From a candidate division WOR-3 bacterium (lineage in GTDB: Bacteria > Hydrothermota > UBA3073): DNA of 64,000 nucleotides. Below the pieces are notes generated by a model. That model did no database searches. It was not told where the DNA came from and saw only the letters and a program-made list of their open reading frames with translations. The stretch covers positions 4,714 to 68,713 of the forward strand of contig JAGMCL010000119.1 in NCBI GenBank assembly GCA_023129165.1, given 5' to 3'. The position numbers were made by a program, and so were the translations under genes. How positions within the stretch are numbered: position 1 is the stretch's first letter; each line of letters begins with the position of its first letter. Shown piece by piece: positions 1,896 through 53,800 of the stretch.

Positions 1896-3785
1896 TTAAC
1901 TCCCAAGTAACATCTCCATTATGTCTTTCCCAACTTTAACCTCAGGAATTGCCTTTATATAGAGTCTAAAGTCATAATTCCATCTATCTCCATACTTTTG
2001 ATAGTTAAACTGAAGCTCCCAGCAGTGTAGGTCTCTCTTTAATGAAATACGCTCATTTATTAACATTCCGTTTCTAAGATCATATCTGACATCACCTTCA
2101 ATCCTCCAACCACTTGTTGGTTTCATACTTATATTTCCCCATATGCTCTCATCACTATCCTCTTTTATATTATAGGTCAGGTTCATCCTAAAATTTCCTC
2201 TCGAAAGTGAATAATTTGATATAAGATATTTCCCGTATAGTCTGTCAGAATAGATATCACATGTAAGTCCACCCCTTAAGGAAAATCCTGAAATTTGTGA
2301 GGTCATAAATACAATCCCAACAGGATTCCATTTGTGAGTGTCAAAATTCCATGTACTACTAATATCTATCCTGCCCAGATCAATCTTGTTGCCGTTCCAG
2401 GATAGGGTCATAAAGTCGTTCTGTATAGATACACCCATGTTTTCTGTATGTAATTCATTAGATCTGGAGAATTTATAATAGAAATAGGGTTTTATAGTAT
2501 GCCTAAACTCCGGGCTTCTTAATATCGATCTGCCATATATTACTGTACCAAACCCAATTGAACCATTATAGAAGTTCTCATACGAAACACTATTATCTAC
2601 ATATGAAAGTATAAGTCTTCCCCCAATAGCTGGAGAAATATTAAAATACCACAACCTCTTTGGAAGTGTAAATCTCAGGTTGTTCTCGCTTCTTCTCTCC
2701 ACATCTTCTGTGTAAACAGAATTCCGAACAATCCCAGAGTAAGAAATAAGCCCCCCAAATAATCCTATAGCTGGGGCTGAGATGGTAATCCGTGGATAGT
2801 CTCCTATAATATCATCGGTTCTGAGATCTCTTGTTTCCCTCACTATAAGCCCTGTCGAGAATGGACCAAGCCTTTTAGATAATGATAGATATGATGATAT
2901 TACCTGTTCCAGCTCACTAATTACATTATCCTCATAATCCATATTAAAAGAAAGGTCACTTACAAAATCACCTTTAGCCACAATCATAGTCCCATCACGT
3001 GTGTTATGTCGATGTGATAGTTTTACTTTCCATCTTCTTTTTACTCCGTTTTCATCTACATATTGGGCGTTCAAATTCCCTGATAACCTTGGTCTATAAA
3101 GCCAAACAGATGAAATCCCCAATGCCAGTCCCTTTTTCTCCATATAGTCGAGACTGAATGTCATATCCATATAATCTGAAATAACCCAGTAGTATGCTAT
3201 GTCTCTTACATATCTTCCAAGAGTAGAGCTCCTCCCAACTTTGGGAAAAAGTAACCCTGATGATCTGCCACTCTTTATGGGGAAGAACCAAAATGGAAGG
3301 AAAAAGACAGGTATATCCTGTACAAATAATACCAAAGGTCTTGCATAGACCATATCATCAACATATATCTTTAGAGACTTTGCCCAGAAGTAGTAGTGGG
3401 GTGGATTTAGTTCACAGGTTGTAAATTTTCCATTGTCTACATTAAGCGTTTTGGGAGCAACCATCCTTACAGTTTTACCCTCGAACCATCCCTTTTCTAC
3501 CTTGCTTCTACCATCAGTTGCTATCCCTTTTTCAGAATCCAGATTGTAGGCCATGGTTTTACCGTAAATCGTATCCTTATCTATACACAAAATGGGGTTT
3601 TTGTATGCCCTAACATCTTTGGTCTCTGTATCGTAAACCAGACTGTCAGAAATTACCTTTATGTTTCTATAATCAACCCTGGCACTTTCCTGCAGCACGA
3701 TCTTACCTTCCTCGAAATCATAAATAAGCTTATCTGCAGAGTAATAAACAGTATTATTTAAGAGGAAGATACAAAGAAGAAGCAT
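1896..3785 (-). CDS. LptD/OstA-like outer-membrane LPS-assembly protein (putative)
   Basis: The N-terminal region ADKLIYDFEEGKIVLQESARVDYRNIKVISDSLVYDTETKDVRAY resembles the OstA/LptA-like fold. It is followed by about 500 aa of alternating aromatic/hydrophobic beta-strand-like sequence. Assigned by pattern only. Confidence 0.45.
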   Translation of the reverse strand: MLLLCIFLLNNTVYYSADKLIYDFEEGKIVLQESARVDYRNIKVISDSLVYDTETKDVRAYKNPILCIDKDTIYGKTMAYNLDSEKGIATDGRSKVEKGWFEGKTVRMVAPKTLNVDNGKFTTCELNPPHYYFWAKSLKIYVDDMVYARPLVLFVQDIPVFFLPFWFFPIKSGRSSGLLFPKVGRSSTLGRYVRDIAYYWVISDYMDMTFSLDYMEKKGLALGISSVWLYRPRLSGNLNAQYVDENGVKRRWKVKLSHRHNTRDGTMIVAKGDFVSDLSFNMDYEDNVISELEQVISSYLSLSKRLGPFSTGLIVRETRDLRTDDIIGDYPRITISAPAIGLFGGLISYSGIVRNSVYTEDVERRSENNLRFTLPKRLWYFNISPAIGGRLILSYVDNSVSYENFYNGSIGFGTVIYGRSILRSPEFRHTIKPYFYYKFSRSNELHTENMGVSIQNDFMTLSWNGNKIDLGRIDISSTWNFDTHKWNPVGIVFMTSQISGFSLRGGLTCDIYSDRLYGKYLISNYSLSRGNFRMNLTYNIKEDSDESIWGNISMKPTSGWRIEGDVRYDLRNGMLINERISLKRDLHCWELQFNYQKYGDRWNYDFRLYIKAIPEVKVGKDIMEMLLGS

Positions 3786-24438: not shown

Positions 24439-27400
24439 CTATCTCAAGAGCACAAGTTTGCCCATCTTCTCATATCCTTCGGCGTCCATCTTGTAGAAGT
24501 AAATTCCAGAGGGCAGTCTAATACCTTCATCACTTGACCCATCCCATCTATATGAATGATGTCCTGCACCAAGCTTTTCATCAACAAGTCTCTTTACGAG
24601 TCTACCTGAAGCATCATATACCAATATACTTACATCCATAACATCTATAAGTGCAAACTTGATTGTCGTTCCTGTAGTAAACGGATTAGGCGAAATTAAC
24701 TCTATACCAGTAAAATCTACACCCTCTATTCCAGTGCAAATCTTCTTTACGGTTATATCAAATCGCCTTATCTCGCCAGGTGCCTTTCTGTTCAATAAAA
24801 GAACGGGATTTGTTAGTATAGCTTCAATATCAGTGTCCGCAACCTTCCTGGAAGTGTTAATAATATCGTAACTGCTTCTGTCAGCCATTTTAAGCTCATT
24901 ACCAGACTCATCTGTAATAATGAATTCGTATCCACTCACATCACCCTCAAACTCCCAGGACAGCTCTACAGTTTCATTATTCGTATTAAGCTCTATCTCG
25001 ACTGGAATGTTCATTGTTCCTTCAAAATTCTCAAGCTTAAGATGCTTGAAGCCAGCATCACCTTGAGGGATATAAAGCATCACATACTCATCCAGTGGAA
25101 CTATAAACTCAACAACCGATAATGCCCTTGAGTCATCCGACATACCCACATAATTATACTCATCTACAAGGTCTCCTGACTTTAGAGACAGCTTGAGCTG
25201 CCAATCCCAGGTAGCCTGTGAATTATTTTCCCTGTCTCCCTCACTATTGGAACTCATACATATAGCAGGTAAGCTATAATCTGCAATCATGGGTGTGCTC
25301 TTAATAGGAGGTGTCCATGGGGTAAAGAGTTGTGCAGGGAAGGTTACACTGCCAAGACCAGGATCTGCTACCTGTACCCAGAAACCCATCATAGCTTCTA
25401 TCCACCCGTCCCAACTACCGGGATATACGAGATACTGATATCCATCGAAGCACTGTGCAACATAATTTACATTATTCAACTGCAGGCTATCAAAATGAAT
25501 CGCACCATACATACCATTCTTAGGCGTAAGCATAGACCAATAAGGAAACGGAACTCCGATAAGATTCCATCCATAAATGTAAGGGTTAGGATAAGTACGG
25601 GATACGAATATCTCATGAGGAAGGATGATTGGTGTACCCATCACATCTGCATAGTCAGCAGTAAAGTTACCTAACATATAGCCTCCTGCAGGATATCCAG
25701 ATGGAAAACCCACATACGAAGGATAGAAGTATGCTCCTGTCCACTCGTCAAATCCATATGTATTAACCGCCTTTGTTGGTAAATCATCCCCCCATGCATG
25801 GTCAGACTCCGGTACATCATATGGGGGTAATAGTATTGCCGGCACACTCACAAGATTCCATCCTGTATGCAGGTCAATCCAGGTTACTATCTCAAGACGA
25901 GTTTGGCCACCATAACACCCCATGTCGTTTCGGCTTCCATCCCAATCATTATATGACGGGTCTGGGTCGCCTGCATCGATACAGGGTGAACCCCAGGTAA
26001 GCTGAAGCCAGGTCCTATTAACAAGAGGGTCTTGAAAGATATTATTATCCATAAATATAGCACCAAATGGGTCGATAACATCAGCAACTCCATTTTCATA
26101 GAGGTCTGAGTATGTCAAGTCTACTGGATATCCCGACTTCTTATCCAACCACCAAAACGGAAAGTCCCAACAAACACCACAACCTGAATTCCATGCTATA
26201 ATATTATTTTTCATCTCACTCTTAGAGAATACGATATAGACACCGCCTGCTGGTATATCAGTACCTAACACTACATCATCTATAGCCATATCAGCATTTT
26301 CATCTGCTACAGCATTGAATGCAATCATTATATTATCTACTATTGTTTTATCTGTTAGATAAGGAGATAAATCCAGAGTTGCCTTATACCACTGCCAGTT
26401 GTACCACGGCCAAGTCCCACCAGAATTGACTACATCGGCTGAATCGCCGAATGTCCATAGATTATCCCAGGTAATACCACCATCAGTTGAAATCTTCACA
26501 AATAGATCACCATGGTCCTCTACCACATGCCAATACCAACTTGATTTCCACCAGAAAGAAAGGAAGATGCCTGATAATCCATCCACATAAATATCAGGAG
26601 TAATGAGCCACTCATCTAAATCATATCCCCAGGGACAGAGTGCACCATACAGCCCAGTGTGACAATAAGACCAAGGATCTGATTGACGCCAGTGAGCAGT
26701 CTGATAACCCGGACTGCTTAGACCATCTATCACAGTCCATCCAGAAGGTGGGAAGATTCCCTCAAAGCCCTCTGATAATATCGTAAATTTTTCGCTGTGG
26801 GTAACTGGGTCTTCAATATCTCCTTCTTTTACTGTTGGAGGACAGCTTCTACTCATCATATCACCTTCGGATGTTCCTGATGAGGTAACCGCCTTATTTA
26901 CCTTGTCAAAAGTTAAATTCTCAGACTCCCCCATTACTTCATAATCATTCACCATCTCTTTTAGAAGGTCCATATAACCTTCGGGTAATTGCAAACCTTC
27001 TAAATCTATTTTATCCACATATTCATAACCTGCCCAGTTGTCTACAATGGTGTTGTTAATTATATCAACATCTACCGGGAAAAACCCATCTTCCTTTATT
27101 CCAAGATCAGCAAACGAGATAAGAGCAATGGCTCCACCTGAAATCATTGCATAATTTAAGCGGAAGAGGTTATTCTGTATAATTCCAGTACAACAGGAAC
27201 TCCAATAATCCCATTCATCGGTCCATATACAGACAGCCCCTCCTGCACCAATAGGGAAGTAAAACCCCTCATCCTTTGGTGCAGGTCCACCAAGAAAGGG
27301 GAATCCTGCAAAGTTGAGCATAAATACGTTTCTTTCAATCTCCACATCTACAGGTATACTATATCCATCAGGTATACTATATCCACCAATATATTTATCA

Positions 27401-27945
27401 TCACTCGATCCACCACCACCGTAAACGTTAACTGCACCACCCGCGATTCCAAAATTTAATAAGAAGATATTGTTGATTATTTTTACATGGTTCACTTCTG
27501 TTATTATCTTGGTAGGACCTTCAGAATGCCCAATCACCGAAACAGCCCCTCCAAGTAAAAATGTAGCATCATTACCTGAAGATTTAGCACCATCCATATA
27601 ATAGCCGCAAAACAGAAAAACGAAGCCGTCAACAGTAATATAGTCACCCCCAATTATTATAATTCCACCACCCATTTGCTTGTCTGCCTTAGGATGCGGA
27701 CCCATCACATCCCCAAATATAACAGCCTCCCACCTATCACGCGATAAGAGGGTGAGGTCCGTCTTCTCATAAATAACTATGAACTCCATATACTCACCCG
27801 ATGCCACTGATATTGTATCTCCTGACAAAGATGCATCAACTGCTGCCTGGATGGTAGGTTCCTCCTCAGGCACCAGTATCTGTACGGCATATGACGGCAC
27901 ACTGAGAATAAGTGCCGCACAAATTACAAATAAAACCTTATTCAT
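24439..27945 (-). CDS. secreted right-handed beta-helix-like protein with T9SS C-terminal sorting domain
   Basis: Start set at MNKVLFVICAALILSVPSYA (signal peptide). Glycine-rich beta-helix-like repeats are present. The C-terminus ...ISPNPF...VYDASGRLVKRLVDEKLGAGHHSYRWDGSSDEGIRLPSGIYFYKMDAEGYEKMGKLVLLR matches the T9SS CTD. Confidence 0.6.
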   Translation of the reverse strand: MNKVLFVICAALILSVPSYAVQILVPEEEPTIQAAVDASLSGDTISVASGEYMEFIVIYEKTDLTLLSRDRWEAVIFGDVMGPHPKADKQMGGGIIIIGGDYITVDGFVFLFCGYYMDGAKSSGNDATFLLGGAVSVIGHSEGPTKIITEVNHVKIINNIFLLNFGIAGGAVNVYGGGGSSDDKYIGGYSIPDGYSIPVDVEIERNVFMLNFAGFPFLGGPAPKDEGFYFPIGAGGAVCIWTDEWDYWSSCCTGIIQNNLFRLNYAMISGGAIALISFADLGIKEDGFFPVDVDIINNTIVDNWAGYEYVDKIDLEGLQLPEGYMDLLKEMVNDYEVMGESENLTFDKVNKAVTSSGTSEGDMMSRSCPPTVKEGDIEDPVTHSEKFTILSEGFEGIFPPSGWTVIDGLSSPGYQTAHWRQSDPWSYCHTGLYGALCPWGYDLDEWLITPDIYVDGLSGIFLSFWWKSSWYWHVVEDHGDLFVKISTDGGITWDNLWTFGDSADVVNSGGTWPWYNWQWYKATLDLSPYLTDKTIVDNIMIAFNAVADENADMAIDDVVLGTDIPAGGVYIVFSKSEMKNNIIAWNSGCGVCWDFPFWWLDKKSGYPVDLTYSDLYENGVADVIDPFGAIFMDNNIFQDPLVNRTWLQLTWGSPCIDAGDPDPSYNDWDGSRNDMGCYGGQTRLEIVTWIDLHTGWNLVSVPAILLPPYDVPESDHAWGDDLPTKAVNTYGFDEWTGAYFYPSYVGFPSGYPAGGYMLGNFTADYADVMGTPIILPHEIFVSRTYPNPYIYGWNLIGVPFPYWSMLTPKNGMYGAIHFDSLQLNNVNYVAQCFDGYQYLVYPGSWDGWIEAMMGFWVQVADPGLGSVTFPAQLFTPWTPPIKSTPMIADYSLPAICMSSNSEGDRENNSQATWDWQLKLSLKSGDLVDEYNYVGMSDDSRALSVVEFIVPLDEYVMLYIPQGDAGFKHLKLENFEGTMNIPVEIELNTNNETVELSWEFEGDVSGYEFIITDESGNELKMADRSSYDIINTSRKVADTDIEAILTNPVLLLNRKAPGEIRRFDITVKKICTGIEGVDFTGIELISPNPFTTGTTIKFALIDVMDVSILVYDASGRLVKRLVDEKLGAGHHSYRWDGSSDEGIRLPSGIYFYKMDAEGYEKMGKLVLLR

Positions 27946-27981
27946 ACAACCTCCTTTGTTTAAACCACATAAAATACCCAT

Positions 27982-28855
27982 CGGACAGGGACGAGCCCTG
28001 TGTCCCTACATTAATATCGTTTGTCAGGGTGTAGGGACAACCCTTGTGGTTGTCCGTTTATCGGACAGGGACGAGCCCCCTGTCCCTACATTGGGATTTC
28101 ATCCACCAAACCAGAATATGGGTAATCACTTGCATTTTCTACAATTCCTTTGCGTACTGGATTTTGTAATATATAGTCTACAATTTTAATCAGATTTTCA
28201 TCACTCCTTACAATGTGGTCATAAAAACGTCCCTGCCATAATTTACCTGTTCCCTTATACTTCCAGAATATATGGGTGGATTTACTCTTGAATGCCCCTA
28301 TAAACTGTGAAACTGATATCGGACAGGGACGAGCCCTGTCCCTACATTGGGATCGTTTGTCACGGTGTAGGGACAACCCTTGTGGTTGTCCGTGTTGTTG
28401 GACAAGATTGGGCATCAGAAGCAAGTGGAGGTGATCTGGCATAAGGGAGTAAACAAAAATCAAATATCCCATCCGTCTTCTCTCATAGAGCAAACATTCA
28501 ATAACGCCATTTGCAATGTCATAGTTTTCAAAATACGGAATTTTGTCTTTAGTGCAAATTGTTATTGAATAATGTCGTGCTTCACAATAATCAAATTCTT
28601 TGAGTCTTGGAGATTTTCGTTTTTTTAACTTATTTTTATCCATTACCGTACATTGTTGTGGAACAGATGTTGTAGGGACAACCCTTGTGGTTGTCCGTTT
28701 ATCGGACAGGGACGAGCCCCGTCCCTACATTGCACGAGTTTCGGATACATTGTTGTGAAACAGATGTTGTAGGGACAACCCTCCTACCTACCGTCAGGCA
28801 GGTGTGGTTGTCCGTCTATCTGACAGGGACGAGCCCTGTCCCTACATTGCACAAA
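27982..28855. mobile_element. REPtron: RAYT gene flanked by cognate REP/BIME arrays
   Basis: REP1 (GGACAGGGACGAGCCCTGTCCCTACATT) and REP2 (GTAGGGACAACCCTTGTGGTTGTCCG) occur as composite units. They lie left of the RAYT (27982-28095), inside it (28318-28390) and right of it (28648-28855, in two tandem composite units). Confidence 0.7.
28086..28643 (-). CDS. REP-associated tyrosine transposase (RAYT, IS200/IS605-like Y1 HuH transposase)
   Basis: YSLMPDHLHLLLMP carries the HuH motif. KLWQGRFYDHIVRSDENL...YILQNPVRKGIVENASDYPYSG carries the catalytic Tyr region. The ORF has an in-frame ~75-nt REP insert between the two motifs, and its stop codon lies inside a REP. Confidence 0.65.
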   Translation of the reverse strand: MDKNKLKKRKSPRLKEFDYCEARHYSITICTKDKIPYFENYDIANGVIECLLYERRRMGYLIFVYSLMPDHLHLLLMPNLVQQHGQPQGLSLHRDKRSQCRDRARPCPISVSQFIGAFKSKSTHIFWKYKGTGKLWQGRFYDHIVRSDENLIKIVDYILQNPVRKGIVENASDYPYSGLVDEIPM

Positions 28856-28903
28856 AAAGTAAAAAGGGATGGCAGTAGTTACTGCCATCCCTTTATTTGC
28901 TCC

Positions 28904-31900
28904 CTATCTAATCGCCAAAATTCGTTTTGTCGCTCTAAAGTTGCCTGCAGAGAGCTTGGCGAAGTAAACACCTGCGTGGGGTGGACTCCAGCCAACATTA
29001 TAGAACCCTGCGTTTTGAGTCTCGTCAACGACCGTGCTTACAAGTCTGCCCGATGAGTCATACACCTTCAGCGTCACATCGACATTTTTCGGAATCTGGT
29101 ATCTTATCACGGCATCACCTCTAACAGGGTTTGGTTCGCATCCGCTCAGTGCAAATACCTTGGGTATCTCCTCAGCACCCATCTTGACACCTTCGACGAC
29201 AGTAATCTCCCTCATTGCATAATTATTCTCAAGGTTGGGGTCCTCAAAGGCTGTTTCAATAGTTACTGCAGCAGTGTATAAACCAGGATATAGAATAGGA
29301 ATACCACCCTGGAAATTTACCAGAACACTATCCTGTGGTTCTAAATCCCATATATTTTCAGCCTTAGAACCGATAATATTTCCATCCCCGTCAAACAGCT
29401 TATAGTATACAACAAATGAGATTACCGGGGCATCAGATGGTGCATTGTTAAAGACGCAGATATATGCATCATAAACATCCGGGCATATGAGTGTATCATT
29501 AACAATGTCCGGGTCTCCCTGATTTGGAACCCCACAGCATCCTGCATCGTATGGATACATTTTTGCAGGAATGATATCAAAACTTACATAATATGGACCC
29601 ACACAGTACTGATTATAATAATACCCATTCTTAGGAGGATTCGGTTCTGGCACATCCTCCTTATATGCTATGAGCACATAATAATCACCAGTGTATGGTA
29701 AATCACAGGCAAGATACTCATTGAGATAACCTGCATCAACCCTTGCAATAATATTACCAAGAGAATCAAGAAGAGCGATGGCACAGTCAAGCCAACCACC
29801 AGGACCGTCATCTTCAAGCACATCTACATAGATAGAACCGGCTGCCTCACCTGCAAATCTATAGTAATCAAGGTCACCATACCACTTCCCGATTGATGGG
29901 TCTTTATGTATATAACAGTCCTCAAAATTTGTGCCACTATCAACCTCTGTAGCTTCAAGTAAATTATCATTGGGCTCATGAGGGTCAACTGCTGTATGGT
30001 TCTCTGCTCCAGGTGTTCCGTGGTCACCATCTCCATAGACCTGATAGGCAAGGTCCCAGTTCGTGAGGTCCATATTATCAAGCCCAGGATCCCACAGCTC
30101 AGCAGATGCACCATTAGGGTCGTACCAATCAGGGTCATTTTGGTCGTAGTATACACTGTCTATAATAATACCGTTGTATTCAAGAATTATCTCATCTGCA
30201 CTGTTGCTGAGGTACCAACCGTCACCGTAATCGTAATCACAAATATATCCACCATTTGTAGCAAAGTCACCATTACAGCCAAGAACAACATAACCACCCG
30301 CTTGTATGATAAGTTCTGTCTTTCCATCACCTACATCAATCACATGATAGTCATAATCTGCATCTCTAATAACCCAACCATTTATATCTATTGGTTCTGC
30401 AGATGGATTATATATCTCGAACCACTCTCCTTCACTGTCGTAAACCTTCCTCGGATTATTCATTATCTCGGTTATAACAGGACACTGCGGTTCACCCTCT
30501 ATAGTCACATTATCAATCATCCAGTAGTAGCCCCATTCTCCAGCATCATTAAAATAGAACCTTAATCTGACATCAGATACACCACTTGCTATGGATGAAA
30601 TATCCTCATCGCTCACAGCATAGAAATTGCCTCCTACAAAATGCAGGATATTGATCCAGGTAACACCACCATCCACAGATATATCTACATCTCCGTAATC
30701 ATCGTAGAAGGAGTAACTATGAAAATATGAGCTGAAGCTTAAATTGAGTTTAGAGTAACCAGAGCAGTCTATAGATGGGGATATAAGCTCCGTTTCTACA
30801 TCAACGCCTGATCCTGCTTCGTCATCATCTGCTATCATAAAGGGTTCAGCACAACCACCTTCGGGGGACCTTCCTCCAGGATTAGTAGTAGTCCATGGCC
30901 AACCTGATCCAGCAATATCATTTACTGTCCATCCACATGGAGGGTCTCCTTCAGAGAAATCCTCATAAAAAACTACAACTGGTGTACATATAGAGGCATA
31001 ATACGAACCCCAGAGTGTATCATTTGATGGATCTTCGTCACCATTCTTTCCCAGAAAAAGTTCAGTGAATACCTCTGTTGTGAATGCACCCTGGCTTGTA
31101 ATTATGTCAGAGAAATTTACTGTCTGTGTCGCCCCGCCTCCAAGTTCTGTAACTGTCTGTGTCTCGGTATATATTTGTGCCCTCGTCTCATAATCATATA
31201 TATTATATGTGACATCAAATGTTTCTGTTTCTGCTCTGAAGTTCTCAACAATCGCTACGGGTGTCACTGTTTCACCAATACTATACATTCCTGTTGGTGC
31301 CAGTATAGATGTAACACCCACATCGTGACCTGCCAACAAATAAGTCCAGTAGGTTAGAGGAAACTCGATATAATAACCACCATAATAGCCATCATCGGGA
31401 GTTAATTCGTCAGGATTGTAGTCATCTGAATAACCGAATGCAGTCACATTGACAGAGCTTGAACTATTATCTCCCACGATATAATGTGTTGACACATAGG
31501 TACCTGTCCAGTCCTCAATCACCAAAAGAAGATTGGATACGCCATCATAAGAAAATGGTGGAACCAGTGGAATCTCCGTAACACCACCATTTAACCAGCT
31601 AACATCTCCCTCGAATACAAGAGGAGGGTTGGTAAGGTACCCGGAACCATCGAATGACGTTTCTACTGTTGTCCCGAGAAATATCTTAAGATGCCTGGTT
31701 GGACTGTTGGCAAAACTATAGAAGCCAATTTTACTGATATCACACGGGAAATCCATCATCCAGTCTGAATGGTATATTACCTGAGATTTGCAAAAATTGT
31801 AATATGCATAATCCCAGATGTACCAACCATATCCTGACCACACTCCTGACTGCCATGTTGCTCTATCAGGTTCGAGTTTCGGGGTACTATTTAACTCCAT

Positions 31901-31999
31901 CTTTAAAGGACCCTCAACTTTCTCTGCACCAATATCTGCTGCAGAAAGGGTAAAAGCAACCAGTATAAGAGCAAGAAAGGCGGCACTCACTTTTTTCAT
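28904..31999 (-). CDS. T9SS cargo protein with CARDB-like and lamin-tail (LTD) domains
   Basis: Start set at MKKVSAAFLALILVAF, with an AGGAGGT RBS. HDVGVTSILAPTGMYSIGETV... is CARDB-like. ITEIMNNPRKVYDSEGEWFEIYN...INGWVIRD is LTD-like. The C-terminus ...VTLKVYDSSGRLVSTVVDE...GVYFAKLSAGNFRATKRILAIR is a T9SS CTD. Confidence 0.6.
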   Translation of the reverse strand: MKKVSAAFLALILVAFTLSAADIGAEKVEGPLKMELNSTPKLEPDRATWQSGVWSGYGWYIWDYAYYNFCKSQVIYHSDWMMDFPCDISKIGFYSFANSPTRHLKIFLGTTVETSFDGSGYLTNPPLVFEGDVSWLNGGVTEIPLVPPFSYDGVSNLLLVIEDWTGTYVSTHYIVGDNSSSSVNVTAFGYSDDYNPDELTPDDGYYGGYYIEFPLTYWTYLLAGHDVGVTSILAPTGMYSIGETVTPVAIVENFRAETETFDVTYNIYDYETRAQIYTETQTVTELGGGATQTVNFSDIITSQGAFTTEVFTELFLGKNGDEDPSNDTLWGSYYASICTPVVVFYEDFSEGDPPCGWTVNDIAGSGWPWTTTNPGGRSPEGGCAEPFMIADDDEAGSGVDVETELISPSIDCSGYSKLNLSFSSYFHSYSFYDDYGDVDISVDGGVTWINILHFVGGNFYAVSDEDISSIASGVSDVRLRFYFNDAGEWGYYWMIDNVTIEGEPQCPVITEIMNNPRKVYDSEGEWFEIYNPSAEPIDINGWVIRDADYDYHVIDVGDGKTELIIQAGGYVVLGCNGDFATNGGYICDYDYGDGWYLSNSADEIILEYNGIIIDSVYYDQNDPDWYDPNGASAELWDPGLDNMDLTNWDLAYQVYGDGDHGTPGAENHTAVDPHEPNDNLLEATEVDSGTNFEDCYIHKDPSIGKWYGDLDYYRFAGEAAGSIYVDVLEDDGPGGWLDCAIALLDSLGNIIARVDAGYLNEYLACDLPYTGDYYVLIAYKEDVPEPNPPKNGYYYNQYCVGPYYVSFDIIPAKMYPYDAGCCGVPNQGDPDIVNDTLICPDVYDAYICVFNNAPSDAPVISFVVYYKLFDGDGNIIGSKAENIWDLEPQDSVLVNFQGGIPILYPGLYTAAVTIETAFEDPNLENNYAMREITVVEGVKMGAEEIPKVFALSGCEPNPVRGDAVIRYQIPKNVDVTLKVYDSSGRLVSTVVDETQNAGFYNVGWSPPHAGVYFAKLSAGNFRATKRILAIR

Positions 32000-32015
32000 T
32001 CTGACCTCCTTTGTT

Positions 32016-32040
32016 ATAAAAGGTAGTGGGAGGGGTTTTA
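32016..32040 (-). terminator. intrinsic terminator after paralog A
   Basis: GTGGGAGGGG-ttTTa-CCCCTCCCAC forms a 10-bp perfect stem. On the minus strand it is followed by uaCCUUUUAU. It lies between the stop of the 32062 gene and the RBS of the 31999 gene. Confidence 0.6.
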
Positions 32041-32061
32041 CCCCTCCCACTATTATCTCAT

Positions 32062-50800: not shown

Positions 50801-53800
50801 TATATATCGTACCACTCGTGGCACCAGGACCCAGCGTGCTGATCTCAGTGGGCTCAAACGTCACATTGTAATCGTTTATGACGTAGTCACCGTTCACAAA
50901 GTTCGTAGAAGTGAATATAATGTGGTCAAGCCAATCATTACCTATGTTCGTTACTGTGAAGTTGGTTGTCCCTACAAGACCATGGTCAGTATCGAAGTCC
51001 GCAGGATCGGTCATCGTAATACCCTCTACAGGCCCAACAATCACCTTAACATCGAAGAAGTCTCCTGTACCATCCTCACCAGGTGATGTAACAGTCACGG
51101 TTCCCTCGTATAGACCCTCAATCTGACCTAAAGGTATGTCTACCTGATAGAGGAGTGCAACTGCATCACCAGTAGCAAGGGTCATAGGCGATGGTGTTAT
51201 AGACAGATTCACAGTAGTAATATCAGGACCAGGTCCTGTAAGATCGGTCATCGTGTAGGTAAGATTCGTCAAATCAGCGTTACCATACATATCCGGGTCA
51301 ACGTTCATCCCATCTGTATTCGGGTTGATAAGTAAGAACAGCCCACTGTCTGAATTGCCAGGAAGCTCATTCAAGAAGAGTATGTTGGCTACAAGATTCT
51401 GCTCGTTATCAGAGATGTCAATATCATAGGACGGAAGCACCTCGAGTGATACTGTAATAGCATCAGAGGGAACTCCATCGTCATCAATCACCCTGATGAA
51501 CCCTGCGTAAGTGCCTGCATGCTGTCCTGCTGGCACATTAACAGCTGGCTGGGCATCTGCTGTCTCACCTATGAGAAGCACGTCGAGCACGGCATCATTC
51601 GCAGGTGCCCAGAAGTCGGTAACGTAGAGATAGATGTCATCAGGTGAAATGAAGTAATCACCGTTGATGAGTCCTGATGTATTGAACTGCAGGTTGTAGA
51701 GGTCTGCATTACCTGTATTCTCAATCTGGAAGACAGATAGGTCAACCATTATATTATGGTTGCCTGAACCGGAGGTAAGGGTCTCAACTATGTTAATATC
51801 CTCCTCTGGTCCAACCTGCACCAGCAACTCGAACTCATCGGATACACCAGCAACCACGTCAAACACCGTAATCGTACCAGCATATACACCCTCTTCCTGA
51901 CCAGCAGGTATGTTGACCACAATAGGCACTTCCTCACTTCCACCTGTGAGCAGGGTTGTAGAATATGTAACTACTACTTGGGTTGCCGATATCGAATACA
52001 GCGGATTATCTATATGCTGGAGATCCGTTGATGTAACACTAATGTTTAAAAGGTCGGTATTACCAAAGGCATCCGGGTCAACGTTCATCGCCTCAGAGTT
52101 CGGGTTGATCACAAGATAGTTACCAGTGGGTGATGAACCAGGAAGACCTGAAAGCGCCATGGCATTACCTATAAGGTTCTGCTCATTGTCAGAAATATCA
52201 ATGTCATATGAAGGTCCAACAGTAATGCTTATGGGTAAAGTTTCTAATGGATAACCATCATCGTCCTTGACTGTCACCGTCCCTGTATAGGTTGCGGCAT
52301 ATGTGCCCAGAGGGACTGCTACATAAACCTCTACATCCTCTGATGCAGTCATCGCCAGCATACCTATTGATGTGGGAACAAATGTGATATTGGAAGATGC
52401 TATGTATCTTCCTGCACCATCATCAAGATCCGTTACCTCAAAAACGATGTTGTCAAGGTCTGCATTTCCATCATTGGTCACTGTAAACGCATCTATTGCG
52501 GTTACGCCGTGGTCAACCGTCTTGTCAAGGGTTCCACTCAAGACAATAGACTCGGCAGGACCAACAATGACCATCAATGTGAAGTAGTCCATAGAGCCAT
52601 CGGCTGATGTCACTACCACCGAACCTGTGTATATACCCATCTCCTGTCCACCAGGTATTGCCACACTCAAAACCACGTTAGCAGATGCACCAGAGGCAAG
52701 GGTTGTAGGTGGACTGATAAAACTAATCTGGGTAGAAGGTATGGTATAGCTGTCGTATGTGAGGTCCGATGCAACATAGGCAAACGGACCACTCAAATCA
52801 AGGTCAGTGTTACCAAACGGGTCAGGGTCGACGTTCATCCCATCCGTGTTCGGGTTTACCAGCAGGAAGATACCACTCTTTACAGTACCGGTATCTCCAG
52901 CAAGTATCATCATATTAGCCAGAAGCATCTGTTGATTGTCAGCTATATCGAGGTCATAGTCTGGCTTCACATACAGGCTGCACAGTATCGTAGCAGATGG
53001 GAATGCATCGTCATCCTTCACCGTAATCTCACCTGTATACCATCCTGTGTATTGACCTGCCGGTGCAATAATCTTCTTGGCAACATCCACAGTGTCTTCC
53101 ATAAGTAGTTCTGTTATCTGTGGTGGCTCGAAGATTATATTCGAAGGATGGATCAGATGACCTGCATAATCCTGTAAGCTTGTTGATTCAAATATAATAC
53201 CATAGAGGTCTGCATTACCGGTGTTAATGACAGAGAAGGTATCTGTCACAAATGCACCGTGGTCAACGCTGTCAACCTCTACAGTTGGAACAACTGCAAT
53301 GCCCTCGGTAGGCCCAACATTCAAAATAAAGTCAAACCAGTCCATTAACTGATAACTCTTGGGTTCGGTTGGTATATAGTGTGCGCCTGAGAATGCACCT
53401 GTGGCACTTATGAGAATCTTGCCTGAGAAGTCATCATCGGGTTTGGTTGTCACAGGGTTGAGAGCAGTGTAGTTGGTTGCGTATGTTCCAAATGGCGTCC
53501 CTACAGGGACTACGACCTCAACCGAATACGATGCCTCCCACTGACCCATTAATAGGATATCAGGACCGAATACATATGCCTTTACGCTGTCCTGAGGATT
53601 ATACATCCTGAACAGCCAGAGGCTGTCTGGCAACGGAAGGAGGGTATCAAGGTCAGGGTCATAAATACCAACTGAATCAGCGTCCTCTGTAGTAGGTCCG
53701 TCCCATGGGTCTGCTGCTAAGTTTTGCATCCAGTCAGGGTTCACAACAGAGAAGTGACCCCATACTGTTTCACCTGGCATGGCATTCAGGGTCATATAGT

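What the first reader, a model, noticed from the sequence alone, without database searches (positions are those of the whole stretch)
27982..28855. REPtron whose RAYT transposase carries its own REP doublet in-frame inside the coding sequence
The HuH motif (HLHLLL) and the catalytic-Tyr motif (NPV+KG...DYPYSG) identify a REP-associated tyrosine transposase. It is flanked by arrays of two cognate REP hairpins, GGACAGG-gacgagc-CCTGTCC and GGACAACC-cttgt-GGTTGTCC.

A composite REP1+REP2 unit (28318-28390) is inserted between the HuH and Tyr motifs without breaking the frame. It adds about 25 aa (…VQQHGQPQGLSLHRDKRSQCRDRARPCPI…). The stop codon (TAG) is also supplied by a REP.

The implication is that the enzyme has either been targeted by its own substrate and may be inactivated, or tolerates the insert.
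Basis: partly seen in the sequence, partly recalled or inferred. Interest (0 to 1): 0.55.

Follow-up and report, generated by a model that had tools for sequence, protein, structure and literature searches.

The report
REP transposase gene carrying its own REP
A small bacterial enzyme gene (a REP-associated tyrosine transposase) contains, in frame, a copy of the hairpin repeat pair it normally acts on; this is real and apparently tolerated, but the same arrangement was described for related genes in 2018.

Summary
ORF 28086-28643 (-) is a RAYT/TnpAREP: NCBIfam REP_Tyr_transpos scores 91 bits against a cutoff of 80, and the best fold match is PDB 4ER8. Nine GTAG-tagged REP hairpins surround it. 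A 78-nt inverted REP doublet (a REPIN, 28317-28394) sits in frame between the HUH strand and the next helix and adds exactly 26 aa. The TAG stop lies inside a REP's GTAG.

The insert is absent from all homologues at or below 57% identity. Its whole WOR-3/Stahlbacteria clade carries it, in three remodelled forms of 63, 78 and 93 nt, all in frame. Flanking codons give dN/dS = 0.12 at dS = 0.81, and every catalytic and GTAG-binding residue is kept. AlphaFold2 models the insert as a low-confidence coil on a confident core. So the enzyme most likely tolerates the insert rather than being inactivated.

The internal REP shares lineage-specific changes with the flanking REPs. In one relative it appears to have served as a recombination point that deleted the 5' half of the gene.

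The arrangement is not new. Quentin et al. 2018 (PMC6006769) reported in-frame REP insertions in this same loop of TnpAREP subclass 2.4. This is a new member of a known kind, of low to moderate interest.

The parts
28086..28643 (-). RAYT / TnpAREP gene, 185 aa. HUH is H71-L-H73, the catalytic Tyr is Y157 and the third metal ligand is N161.
28317..28394 (-). 78-nt in-frame REPIN insert (REP2, 19-nt spacer, REP1 on the coding strand), encoding 26 aa (residues 84-109) in the loop between the HUH strand and the following helix. The boundaries are ambiguous by 1-2 nt.
28320..28346 (-). Internal REP1 with its GTAG foot on the coding strand (GTAGGGACAGGGCTCGTCCCTGTCC). It is the only REP1 copy in the locus that matches the query consensus without a mismatch or indel.
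28366..28392 (+). Internal REP2, with its GTAG foot on the + strand, i.e. inverted relative to REP1.
28062..28090 (-). REP1 copy at the 3' end of the gene (one extra C). The TAG of its GTAG (28086-28088) is the RAYT stop codon.
   Evidence: the same arrangement is seen in L001, L007, L008 and L125
28030..28056 (+). REP2 copy downstream of the gene. With the flanking REP1 copies it forms the REPIN that is most similar (93% over 57 nt) to the internal one.
   Evidence: (family D3)
27982..28010 (-). Outermost downstream REP1 copy (2-nt insertion in the 3' arm).
28671..28729 (.). Upstream REP2 + REP1 pair (28671-28697 and 28703-28729), 28 nt 5' of the start codon.
   Evidence: I6
28768..28846 (.). 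Second upstream pair: REP2 with 21 nt of extra DNA in its loop (28768-28814) and REP1 (28820-28846).
28863..28894 (-). Intrinsic-terminator-like hairpin with a T-run that ends the upstream 1048-aa gene. It marks the outer edge of the REPtron.
   Evidence: (I16)

Best explanation
This is a REPtron from an uncultured WOR-3/Stahlbacteria bacterium. It consists of one RAYT (an HUH/Y1 single-strand DNA endonuclease related to the IS200/IS605 TnpA) flanked by its GTAG-tagged REP hairpins.

One inverted REP doublet (a REPIN) lies inside the RAYT gene, in the loop that joins the HUH beta-strand to the next alpha-helix. It got there either by RAYT-mediated insertion or by recombination with a flanking REPIN (inferred). 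Its length is a multiple of three and it has no stop codon, so it is translated as a 26-aa surface loop modelled as low-confidence coil. The enzyme keeps its fold and all catalytic and GTAG-recognition residues (shown).

The insertion predates the split of lineages that now differ by dS of about 0.8, and the gene has stayed under purifying selection with the insert in place (shown). The insert-bearing protein is therefore most likely functional (inferred).

The internal REP is kept similar to the flanking REPs by gene conversion or re-insertion (inferred from shared lineage-specific variants and spacer replacement). As a side effect it offers a substrate for REP-REP recombination, which can delete or duplicate parts of the gene (seen in relatives).
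For: **Identity.**
- NF047646 scores 91.4 bits against a cutoff of 80.
- The Foldseek top hit is 4er8_A, TnpAREP bound to REP, at E = 4.9e-9.
- H71, H73, Y157 and N161 align to the E. coli HUH, Y115 and N119.
- W136, Q137, H143 and R146 align to the GTAG-binding residues W94, Q95, H101 and R104 (residue list from the PMC6006769 supplement).

**Insert.**
- It is absent in homologues at or below 57% identity and present in P0001, P0002 and P0003.
- Its DNA matches the REP copies.

**Age and selection.**
- Three variants of 78, 93 and 63 nt are all in frame.
- A shared non-REP 21-nt piece, AAGAAGGTTTATCC..., shows common ancestry.
- dN/dS is 0.117 at dS = 0.81 for window versus L001.

**Structure.** AlphaFold2 gives mean pLDDT 87.5. 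The core is above 94. The ten-residue blocks covering 81-110 score 52-69 and are coil, lying between strand 71-78 and helix 111-130.

**Homogenisation.**
- The REP1 loop base is C in all window copies, A in all 4 L001 copies and T in both L027 copies.
- The window's internal spacer matches its downstream REPIN, whereas the internal spacer of the close relative L007 matches the L001 type.

**Independent assemblies.** ENA, JGI, NCBI and a GTDB MAG all carry the insert.

**Precedent.** PMC6006769 reports the same loop, in frame, judged peripheral to the DNA-binding site.
Against: - No biochemical or expression data exist.
- No sigma-70-like promoter was found on the coding strand, although the promoter type of this phylum is not covered by the scan.
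- No REP copy lies outside the RAYT locus in 64 kb, so the REP population may be small or the system quiescent.
- Some relatives are clearly decaying. Both L007 copies lack 10 aa ahead of the HUH strand. L027 lacks the 5' half.
- The window versus L008 comparison gives dN/dS of about 1, but from only 5 substitutions.
- The concerted-evolution signal rests on few sites.
Confidence: 0.8

Rival explanations
1. The RAYT was inactivated by its own REPIN and is a slowly decaying pseudogene. The open frame is a coincidence.
For: - No REPs lie outside the locus in 64 kb.
- Relatives carry a 10-aa deletion (L007), a 5' truncation (L027) or loss of the HUH region (L022), which shows that RAYT decay is common.
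- The first Pfam-matched stretch ends at the insert (residues 24-77).
Against: - dN/dS is 0.12 over dS = 0.81 in lineages that both carry the insert.
- Three separate length changes (6, 21 and 30 nt) all preserve the frame.
- All catalytic and GTAG-binding residues are conserved.
- The insert sits in a loop where another lineage tolerates an unrelated 21-aa insert (P0086).
Confidence: 0.1
2. The internal REPIN has been co-opted as a cis-regulatory element. The RAYT binds or cleaves the REP hairpins in its own gene or mRNA, or the hairpins stall transcription or translation, giving negative autoregulation.
For: - The internal REP1 is the only copy in the locus that matches the consensus without a mismatch or indel.
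- Amino acids encoded by the REP loop vary (R, S, C) while the hairpin is preserved and tracks the flanking REPs.
- The RNA of the insert region folds at -33.8 kcal/mol, z = -3.0.
Against: - There is no direct evidence.
- Homogenisation by gene conversion explains the preserved hairpins without invoking a function.
- L001 keeps only one of the two hairpins.
- Most of the family manages without an internal REP.
Confidence: 0.08
3. The extra segment is an assembly artefact or an ordinary family-specific loop that is not REP-derived.
For: REPs are repeats and can mislead assemblers. The window comes from a metagenome scaffold.
Against: - The same insert is present in independent assemblies from ENA, JGI, NCBI and GTDB.
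- The insert matches REP1 and REP2 at the nucleotide level.
- It is absent from about 100 homologues.
Confidence: 0.02

Closest known systems
TnpAREP subclass 2.4 with intragenic REPs (Quentin et al. 2018, BMC Genomics 19:475, PMC6006769; equals RAYT Group 4 of Bertels et al. 2017)
   Same: - REP sequences are inserted inside the tnpAREP gene itself, without breaking the frame, between beta3 (HUH) and alphaC.
- The insert region is variable in length and sequence.
- The REPs are canonical long REPs with a GTAG foot.
- The taxonomic distribution is patchy across many phyla, and REP copy number is low.
   Different: - The window's family has DHLH rather than NH[IFV]H.
- Most of its members (length about 158 aa, HUH-to-Y about 60 aa) have no insert. 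Only the WOR-3/Stahlbacteria clade does.
- It is only about 30% identical to a RAYT with subclass-2.4-like HUH and WQ motifs (L106).
- It therefore looks like an independent instance in a neighbouring RAYT lineage. Subclass assignment could not be made without the authors' profiles.
E. coli TnpAREP (YafM, PDB 4ER8) and its REP/BIME sequences
   Same: - Same fold, HUH motif, catalytic Tyr with Asn four residues downstream, and GTAG-recognition residues.
- The REPs are GTAG-tagged hairpins flanking the gene.
   Different: - 20% identity.
- E. coli has hundreds of dispersed REPs and no REP inside the gene.
- The E. coli REP stems are longer and bulged.
REPINs of Pseudomonas fluorescens SBW25 (Bertels & Rainey 2011, PMC3116915)
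   Same: Two REPs in inverted orientation, separated by a short spacer, form the presumed mobile unit and are associated with a single-copy RAYT.
   Different: The SBW25 REPINs are extragenic and number in the hundreds. Here one sits inside the RAYT ORF, and no dispersed copies are seen in 64 kb.
In-frame intragenic REPs and Rickettsia palindromic elements (Di Nocera et al. 2013, PMC3733652; Ogata et al. 2000, as cited there)
   Same: Palindromic repeat dimers inserted in frame encode 20-30 aa in otherwise functional genes, presumably in loops.
   Different: Their list of host genes contains no transposase. Here the host gene is the repeat's own mobilising enzyme.

Membership tests
RAYT / TnpAREP (class 2 Y1 HUH endonucleases) | Profile match above the curated threshold | tested here: met
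   NF047646 scores 91.4 bits against a cutoff of 80. Pfam PF01797 scores 34.6 against a cutoff of 23.
RAYT / TnpAREP (class 2 Y1 HUH endonucleases) | HUH motif, single catalytic Tyr and Asn/Gln four residues downstream | tested here: met
   H71-L-H73, Y157 and N161 are invariant or nearly so in 118 sequences. They align to Y115 and N119 of 4er8.
RAYT / TnpAREP (class 2 Y1 HUH endonucleases) | TnpAREP fold | tested here: met
   AlphaFold2 gives pLDDT 87.5. The top Foldseek PDB hit is 4er8_A at E = 4.9e-9, followed by the ISDra2 and IS608 TnpA structures.
RAYT / TnpAREP (class 2 Y1 HUH endonucleases) | Gene flanked by REP hairpins with a 5' GT[AG]G foot | tested here: met
   Nine REP units with a GTAGGG foot lie on both sides of the gene and inside it.
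RAYT / TnpAREP (class 2 Y1 HUH endonucleases) | Cognate REPs dispersed through the genome in many copies | tested here: inconclusive
   None lies outside the locus in the 64-kb window. Related MAGs carry REPs on other contigs (L037, L046, L054, L080).
RAYT / TnpAREP (class 2 Y1 HUH endonucleases) | Binds and cleaves REP single-stranded DNA | not testable with these tools
   This needs biochemistry.
REPIN (Bertels & Rainey) | Two REPs in inverted orientation separated by a short spacer | tested here: met
   Arms 28320-28346 and 28366-28392 are 74% complementary with a 19-nt spacer (I2). Both hairpins are predicted in RNA and DNA folds.
TnpAREP subclass 2.4 (Quentin 2018) | REP inserted in frame inside tnpAREP between beta3 and alphaC | tested here: met
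   The description is in PMC6006769.
TnpAREP subclass 2.4 (Quentin 2018) | Motifs NH[IFV]H / WQ / YIxNNP | tested here: inconclusive
   The window has DHLH / WQ / YILQNP, and the family consensus is DHLH / WQ / YILxNP. One of the three motifs fits, one partly fits and the HUH flank does not. The authors' HMMs are not available here.
Autonomous IS200/IS605 insertion sequence | TnpA(IS200) profile match, usually with multiple identical copies | tested here: not met
   NF033573 scores 18.3 bits against a cutoff of 55. There is a single copy in the window.

The most novel reading that the evidence does not exclude
The internal REPIN is not a passive passenger but a maintained part of the system. 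It would be kept hairpin-competent and sequence-matched to the genomic REP population so that the RAYT recognises its own gene. This would give copy-number-sensitive autoregulation, or programmed REP-REP recombination that switches the gene off (as in L027) or amplifies it (as in L007).
Probability: 0.08. Interest if true: 0.6.

Novelty: new member of a known kind. Interest (0 to 1): 0.27.

Why it matters
RAYT/REPIN systems are discussed as vertically inherited, domesticated replicators. How the enzyme and its repeat population constrain each other is still open.

This clade offers a natural series in which one gene is both enzyme and target. It includes a doublet form, a single-REP form, an extended form, a 5' deletion at the internal REP and a tandem duplication. 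The series could be used to test three things: whether the beta3-alphaC loop is a permissive site, whether internal REPs are homogenised by gene conversion or by transposition, and whether REPs speed up RAYT loss.

As a discovery it adds little. The arrangement itself was reported in 2018.

Tried and rejected
- **Uninterrupted close relative.** I looked in JGI metagenomes, in the 5.8-billion-protein set and in the loci from the GTDB REP scan. None was found. The nearest insert-free relatives are about 50-57% identical.
- **L138.** It first looked like a second 5'-truncated RAYT. I rejected it because the contig simply starts inside the insert.
- **P0086.** Its 21-aa insert in the same loop was checked for REP origin. 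It has none: its REPs are a different 49-nt inverted pair flanking the gene.
- **Window 50967.** The GTAGGGACA there has no hairpin and is a chance match.
- **Rfam.** A scan of 27500-29300 found nothing.
- **Promoter scan.** It found nothing above shuffled expectation on the coding strand.
- **Conservation of internal REP1.** I tested whether it is more conserved than the flanking coding DNA. It shows 2 differences in 27 nt against 17% divergence in the flanks, which by my own rough binomial estimate (P about 0.14) is not significant, so I do not use it as evidence.

Full report
**What is there**

The window is part of ENA metagenome scaffold ZHAN22-2_SAMN18200505_METAG-scaffold_51, 102 kb. 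The closest GTDB genome is 'candidate division WOR-3 bacterium CSMAG_2245' (L125). A 77%-identical orthologue is annotated as Candidatus Stahlbacteria (P0003).

ORF 28086..28643 on the minus strand encodes 185 aa. Its family assignment rests on these results:
- It passes the curated threshold of NCBIfam NF047646 'REP-associated tyrosine transposase' (91.4 bits against 80).
- It fails the IS200 model (18.3 bits against 55).
- It matches Pfam Y1_Tnp.
- PDB 4ER8, E. coli TnpAREP bound to a REP hairpin, is the best sequence match and the best fold match.

H71, H73, Y157 and N161 align with the E. coli HUH, Y115 and N119. W136, Q137, H143 and R146 align with the residues that read the GTAG foot of the REP (residue list in the supplement of PMC6006769).

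**The repeats**

Two hairpins occur only around this gene.
- REP1 is GGACAGGG-ACGAG-CCCTGTCC, in five copies.
- REP2 is GGACAACC-CTTGT-GGTTGTCC, in four copies, one of which has 21 nt of foreign DNA in its loop.
- Shuffled sequence gives no expected matches.

Each hairpin carries a GTAGGG foot. With the foot included, REP1 and REP2 are inverted variants of each other (74% complementary). A REP1-spacer-REP2 unit is therefore a REPIN in the sense of Bertels and Rainey.

The foot GTAGGGACA occurs nine times in 64 kb. Eight lie within 28001-28845. The ninth, at 50967, has no hairpin. The RAYT stop codon is the TAG of the GTAG of the REP1 copy at 28062-28090. The same arrangement is found in every close relative.

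**The insert**

- Eighteen homologues of 41-57% identity lack the segment between LLLMPN and ISVSQF.
- In 76 of 109 proteins for which both motifs were found, the HUH-to-WQ distance is 41 aa. In the window it is 67.
- Removing 28317-28394 (78 nt, 26 aa) gives exactly 41 and a normal loop, P-NLVQQ-SVSQF.
- The removed DNA is REP2, a 19-nt spacer and REP1, matching the other copies.
- AlphaFold2 with a 118-sequence alignment gives pLDDT above 94 for the core and 52-69 for the ten-residue blocks covering 81-110. That stretch is coil between strand 71-78 and helix 111-130.
- A distant homologue, P0086, has an unrelated, non-REP 21-aa insert at the same place. This suggests the loop is permissive.

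**History of the insert**

All close relatives carry an insert at this site, in three forms.
- Window, L008 and L125: REP2, 19-nt spacer, REP1 (78 nt).
- L007: REP2, 13-nt spacer, REP1, plus 21 nt AAGAAGGTTTATCCCTGTCCG (93 nt).
- L001-L006: spacer, REP1, plus the same 21-nt piece, with no REP2 (63 nt).

These forms are shown. The shared non-REP 21-mer and the shared left junction indicate one ancestral insertion that was later remodelled. Every remodelling step (6, 21 and 30 nt) kept the frame.

For the codons outside the insert, window versus L001 gives dS = 0.81, dN = 0.095 and dN/dS = 0.117. The gene has thus been under purifying selection over a period in which, by inference, it already carried the insert. 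This favours 'tolerated' over 'inactivated'.

**Exchange with the flanking REPs**

- The REP1 loop base is lineage-specific and is the same in internal and flanking copies: C in the window, A in L001, T in L027. The encoded residue changes with it (R, S, C).
- The window's internal spacer (CCGTGACAAACGAT...) matches the REPIN downstream of the gene. In the close relative L007 (dS 0.07) the internal spacer is of the L001 type, while the CCGTGACAAACGAT spacer sits downstream.
- The internal element has therefore probably been overwritten recently from a neighbouring REPIN, by gene conversion or re-insertion. This is an inference from few sites.

**Side effects seen in relatives**

- In L027 (WOR-3 MAG055) the upstream REPIN is fused to the internal REP1, and the first ~83 codons are gone. 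This is the expected product of recombination between the ~42-nt direct repeats present in L001. A misassembly through the repeat cannot be fully excluded.
- L007 has two tandem copies of the gene with junctions in the REPs. Both lack 10 aa ahead of the HUH strand.

**Comparison with what is known**

- Quentin et al. [quoted passage not shown]
- Di Nocera et al. 2013 (PMC3733652) describe in-frame GTAG REP dimers encoding 20-30 aa in many genes, and REPs overlapping RAYT 3' ends.
- Bertels et al. 2017 (PMC5581495) describe the equivalent Group 4 as taxonomically scattered and low in REP copy number.

So the phenomenon is known. The motifs of the window's family (DHLH / WQ / YILxNP) fit subclass 2.4 (NH[IFV]H / WQ / YIxNNP) only in part. 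Most of the family has no insert. A RAYT whose HUH and WQ motifs fit subclass 2.4, found in passing (L106), is only 30% identical. I therefore read this as a further, probably independent, instance in a neighbouring RAYT lineage from candidate phyla. I could not assign the subclass formally.

**Verdict**

The open alternative is resolved towards 'tolerated insert' with about 0.8 confidence. Novelty is 'new member of a known kind'. Interest is low to moderate. It lies mainly in the natural allelic series and in the evidence for purifying selection and REP homogenisation, which the 2018 description did not address.

Noticed in passing
L106:1834-2800 (Clostridia MAG CSMAG_1714, DAOVVV010000039.1): A different RAYT type (MPNHIHGIL / IWQRSFYDH, i.e. 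subclass-2.4-like HUH and WQ motifs, 30% identical to the window's) carries the same REP1 sequence GTAGGGACAGGGCTTGTCCCTGTCC in frame (..IVGTGLVPVR..). A second REP type, GTAGGGGATGGGCTTGCCCCATCCC, lies in frame right after the HUH motif (..NKRDGASPSPT..). Partial duplicates of the gene lie on both sides.
   Followed up: partly
The record titles name well over a dozen different bacterial groups, including Zixibacteria, Ignavibacteria, Chloroflexia, Brocadiales, Saganbacteria, Clostridia and Latescibacterota. Some MAGs have ten or more hit stretches. This is a strikingly wide distribution for one REP sequence.
   Followed up: partly
L130-L137 (JGI metagenome contigs): RAYTs only 48-54% identical to the window's are flanked by the same REP family (GTAGGGACAGGGCT[CT]GTCCCTGTCC and GTAGGGACA[AG]CC...). 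The REP sequence is therefore far more conserved than the enzyme. Translated REPs (GQPQGLSLH, TGLVPV) also appear in spurious N-terminal extensions of P0004, P0006, P0012 and P0018.
   Followed up: partly
L027:480-930 (WOR-3 MAG055, JAYENM010000080.1): The RAYT lacks its 5' half. The upstream REPIN is joined to the internal REP1, consistent with deletion by recombination between direct REP repeats.
   Followed up: yes
L007:974-2140: Tandem duplication of the insert-bearing RAYT (period 624 nt, junctions in REP1/REP2). Both copies lack the 10 aa ERRRMGYLIF that precede the HUH strand.
   Followed up: partly
L022:1426-1806: A RAYT 37% identical to the window's lacks the whole HUH strand and the following loop (..RLNFLVYV|KSKATHLAW..). 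It is a decayed copy still flanked by REPs.
   Followed up: no
window 28768-28814; L027:505-545 and 888-925: REP2 copies with 18-21 nt of unrelated DNA inserted in the hairpin loop. The inserted sequence differs between the two lineages.
   Followed up: no
L001:2848-2870 and 3093-3115: A second hairpin type with the same GTAGGG foot but a different stem (GTAGGGCACGGTTTTAACCGTGC) lies upstream of the Stahlbacteria RAYT.
   Followed up: no
window 24439-27981 (-) and 28904-32050 (-): The RAYT sits between very large secreted proteins (1180 and 1048 aa) with T9SS C-terminal sorting domains (Por_Secre_tail, FlgD_ig). L001 has a different neighbourhood (HHH_3 protein and UDP-glucose dehydrogenase), so the RAYT locus is not syntenic across the clade.
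   Followed up: no
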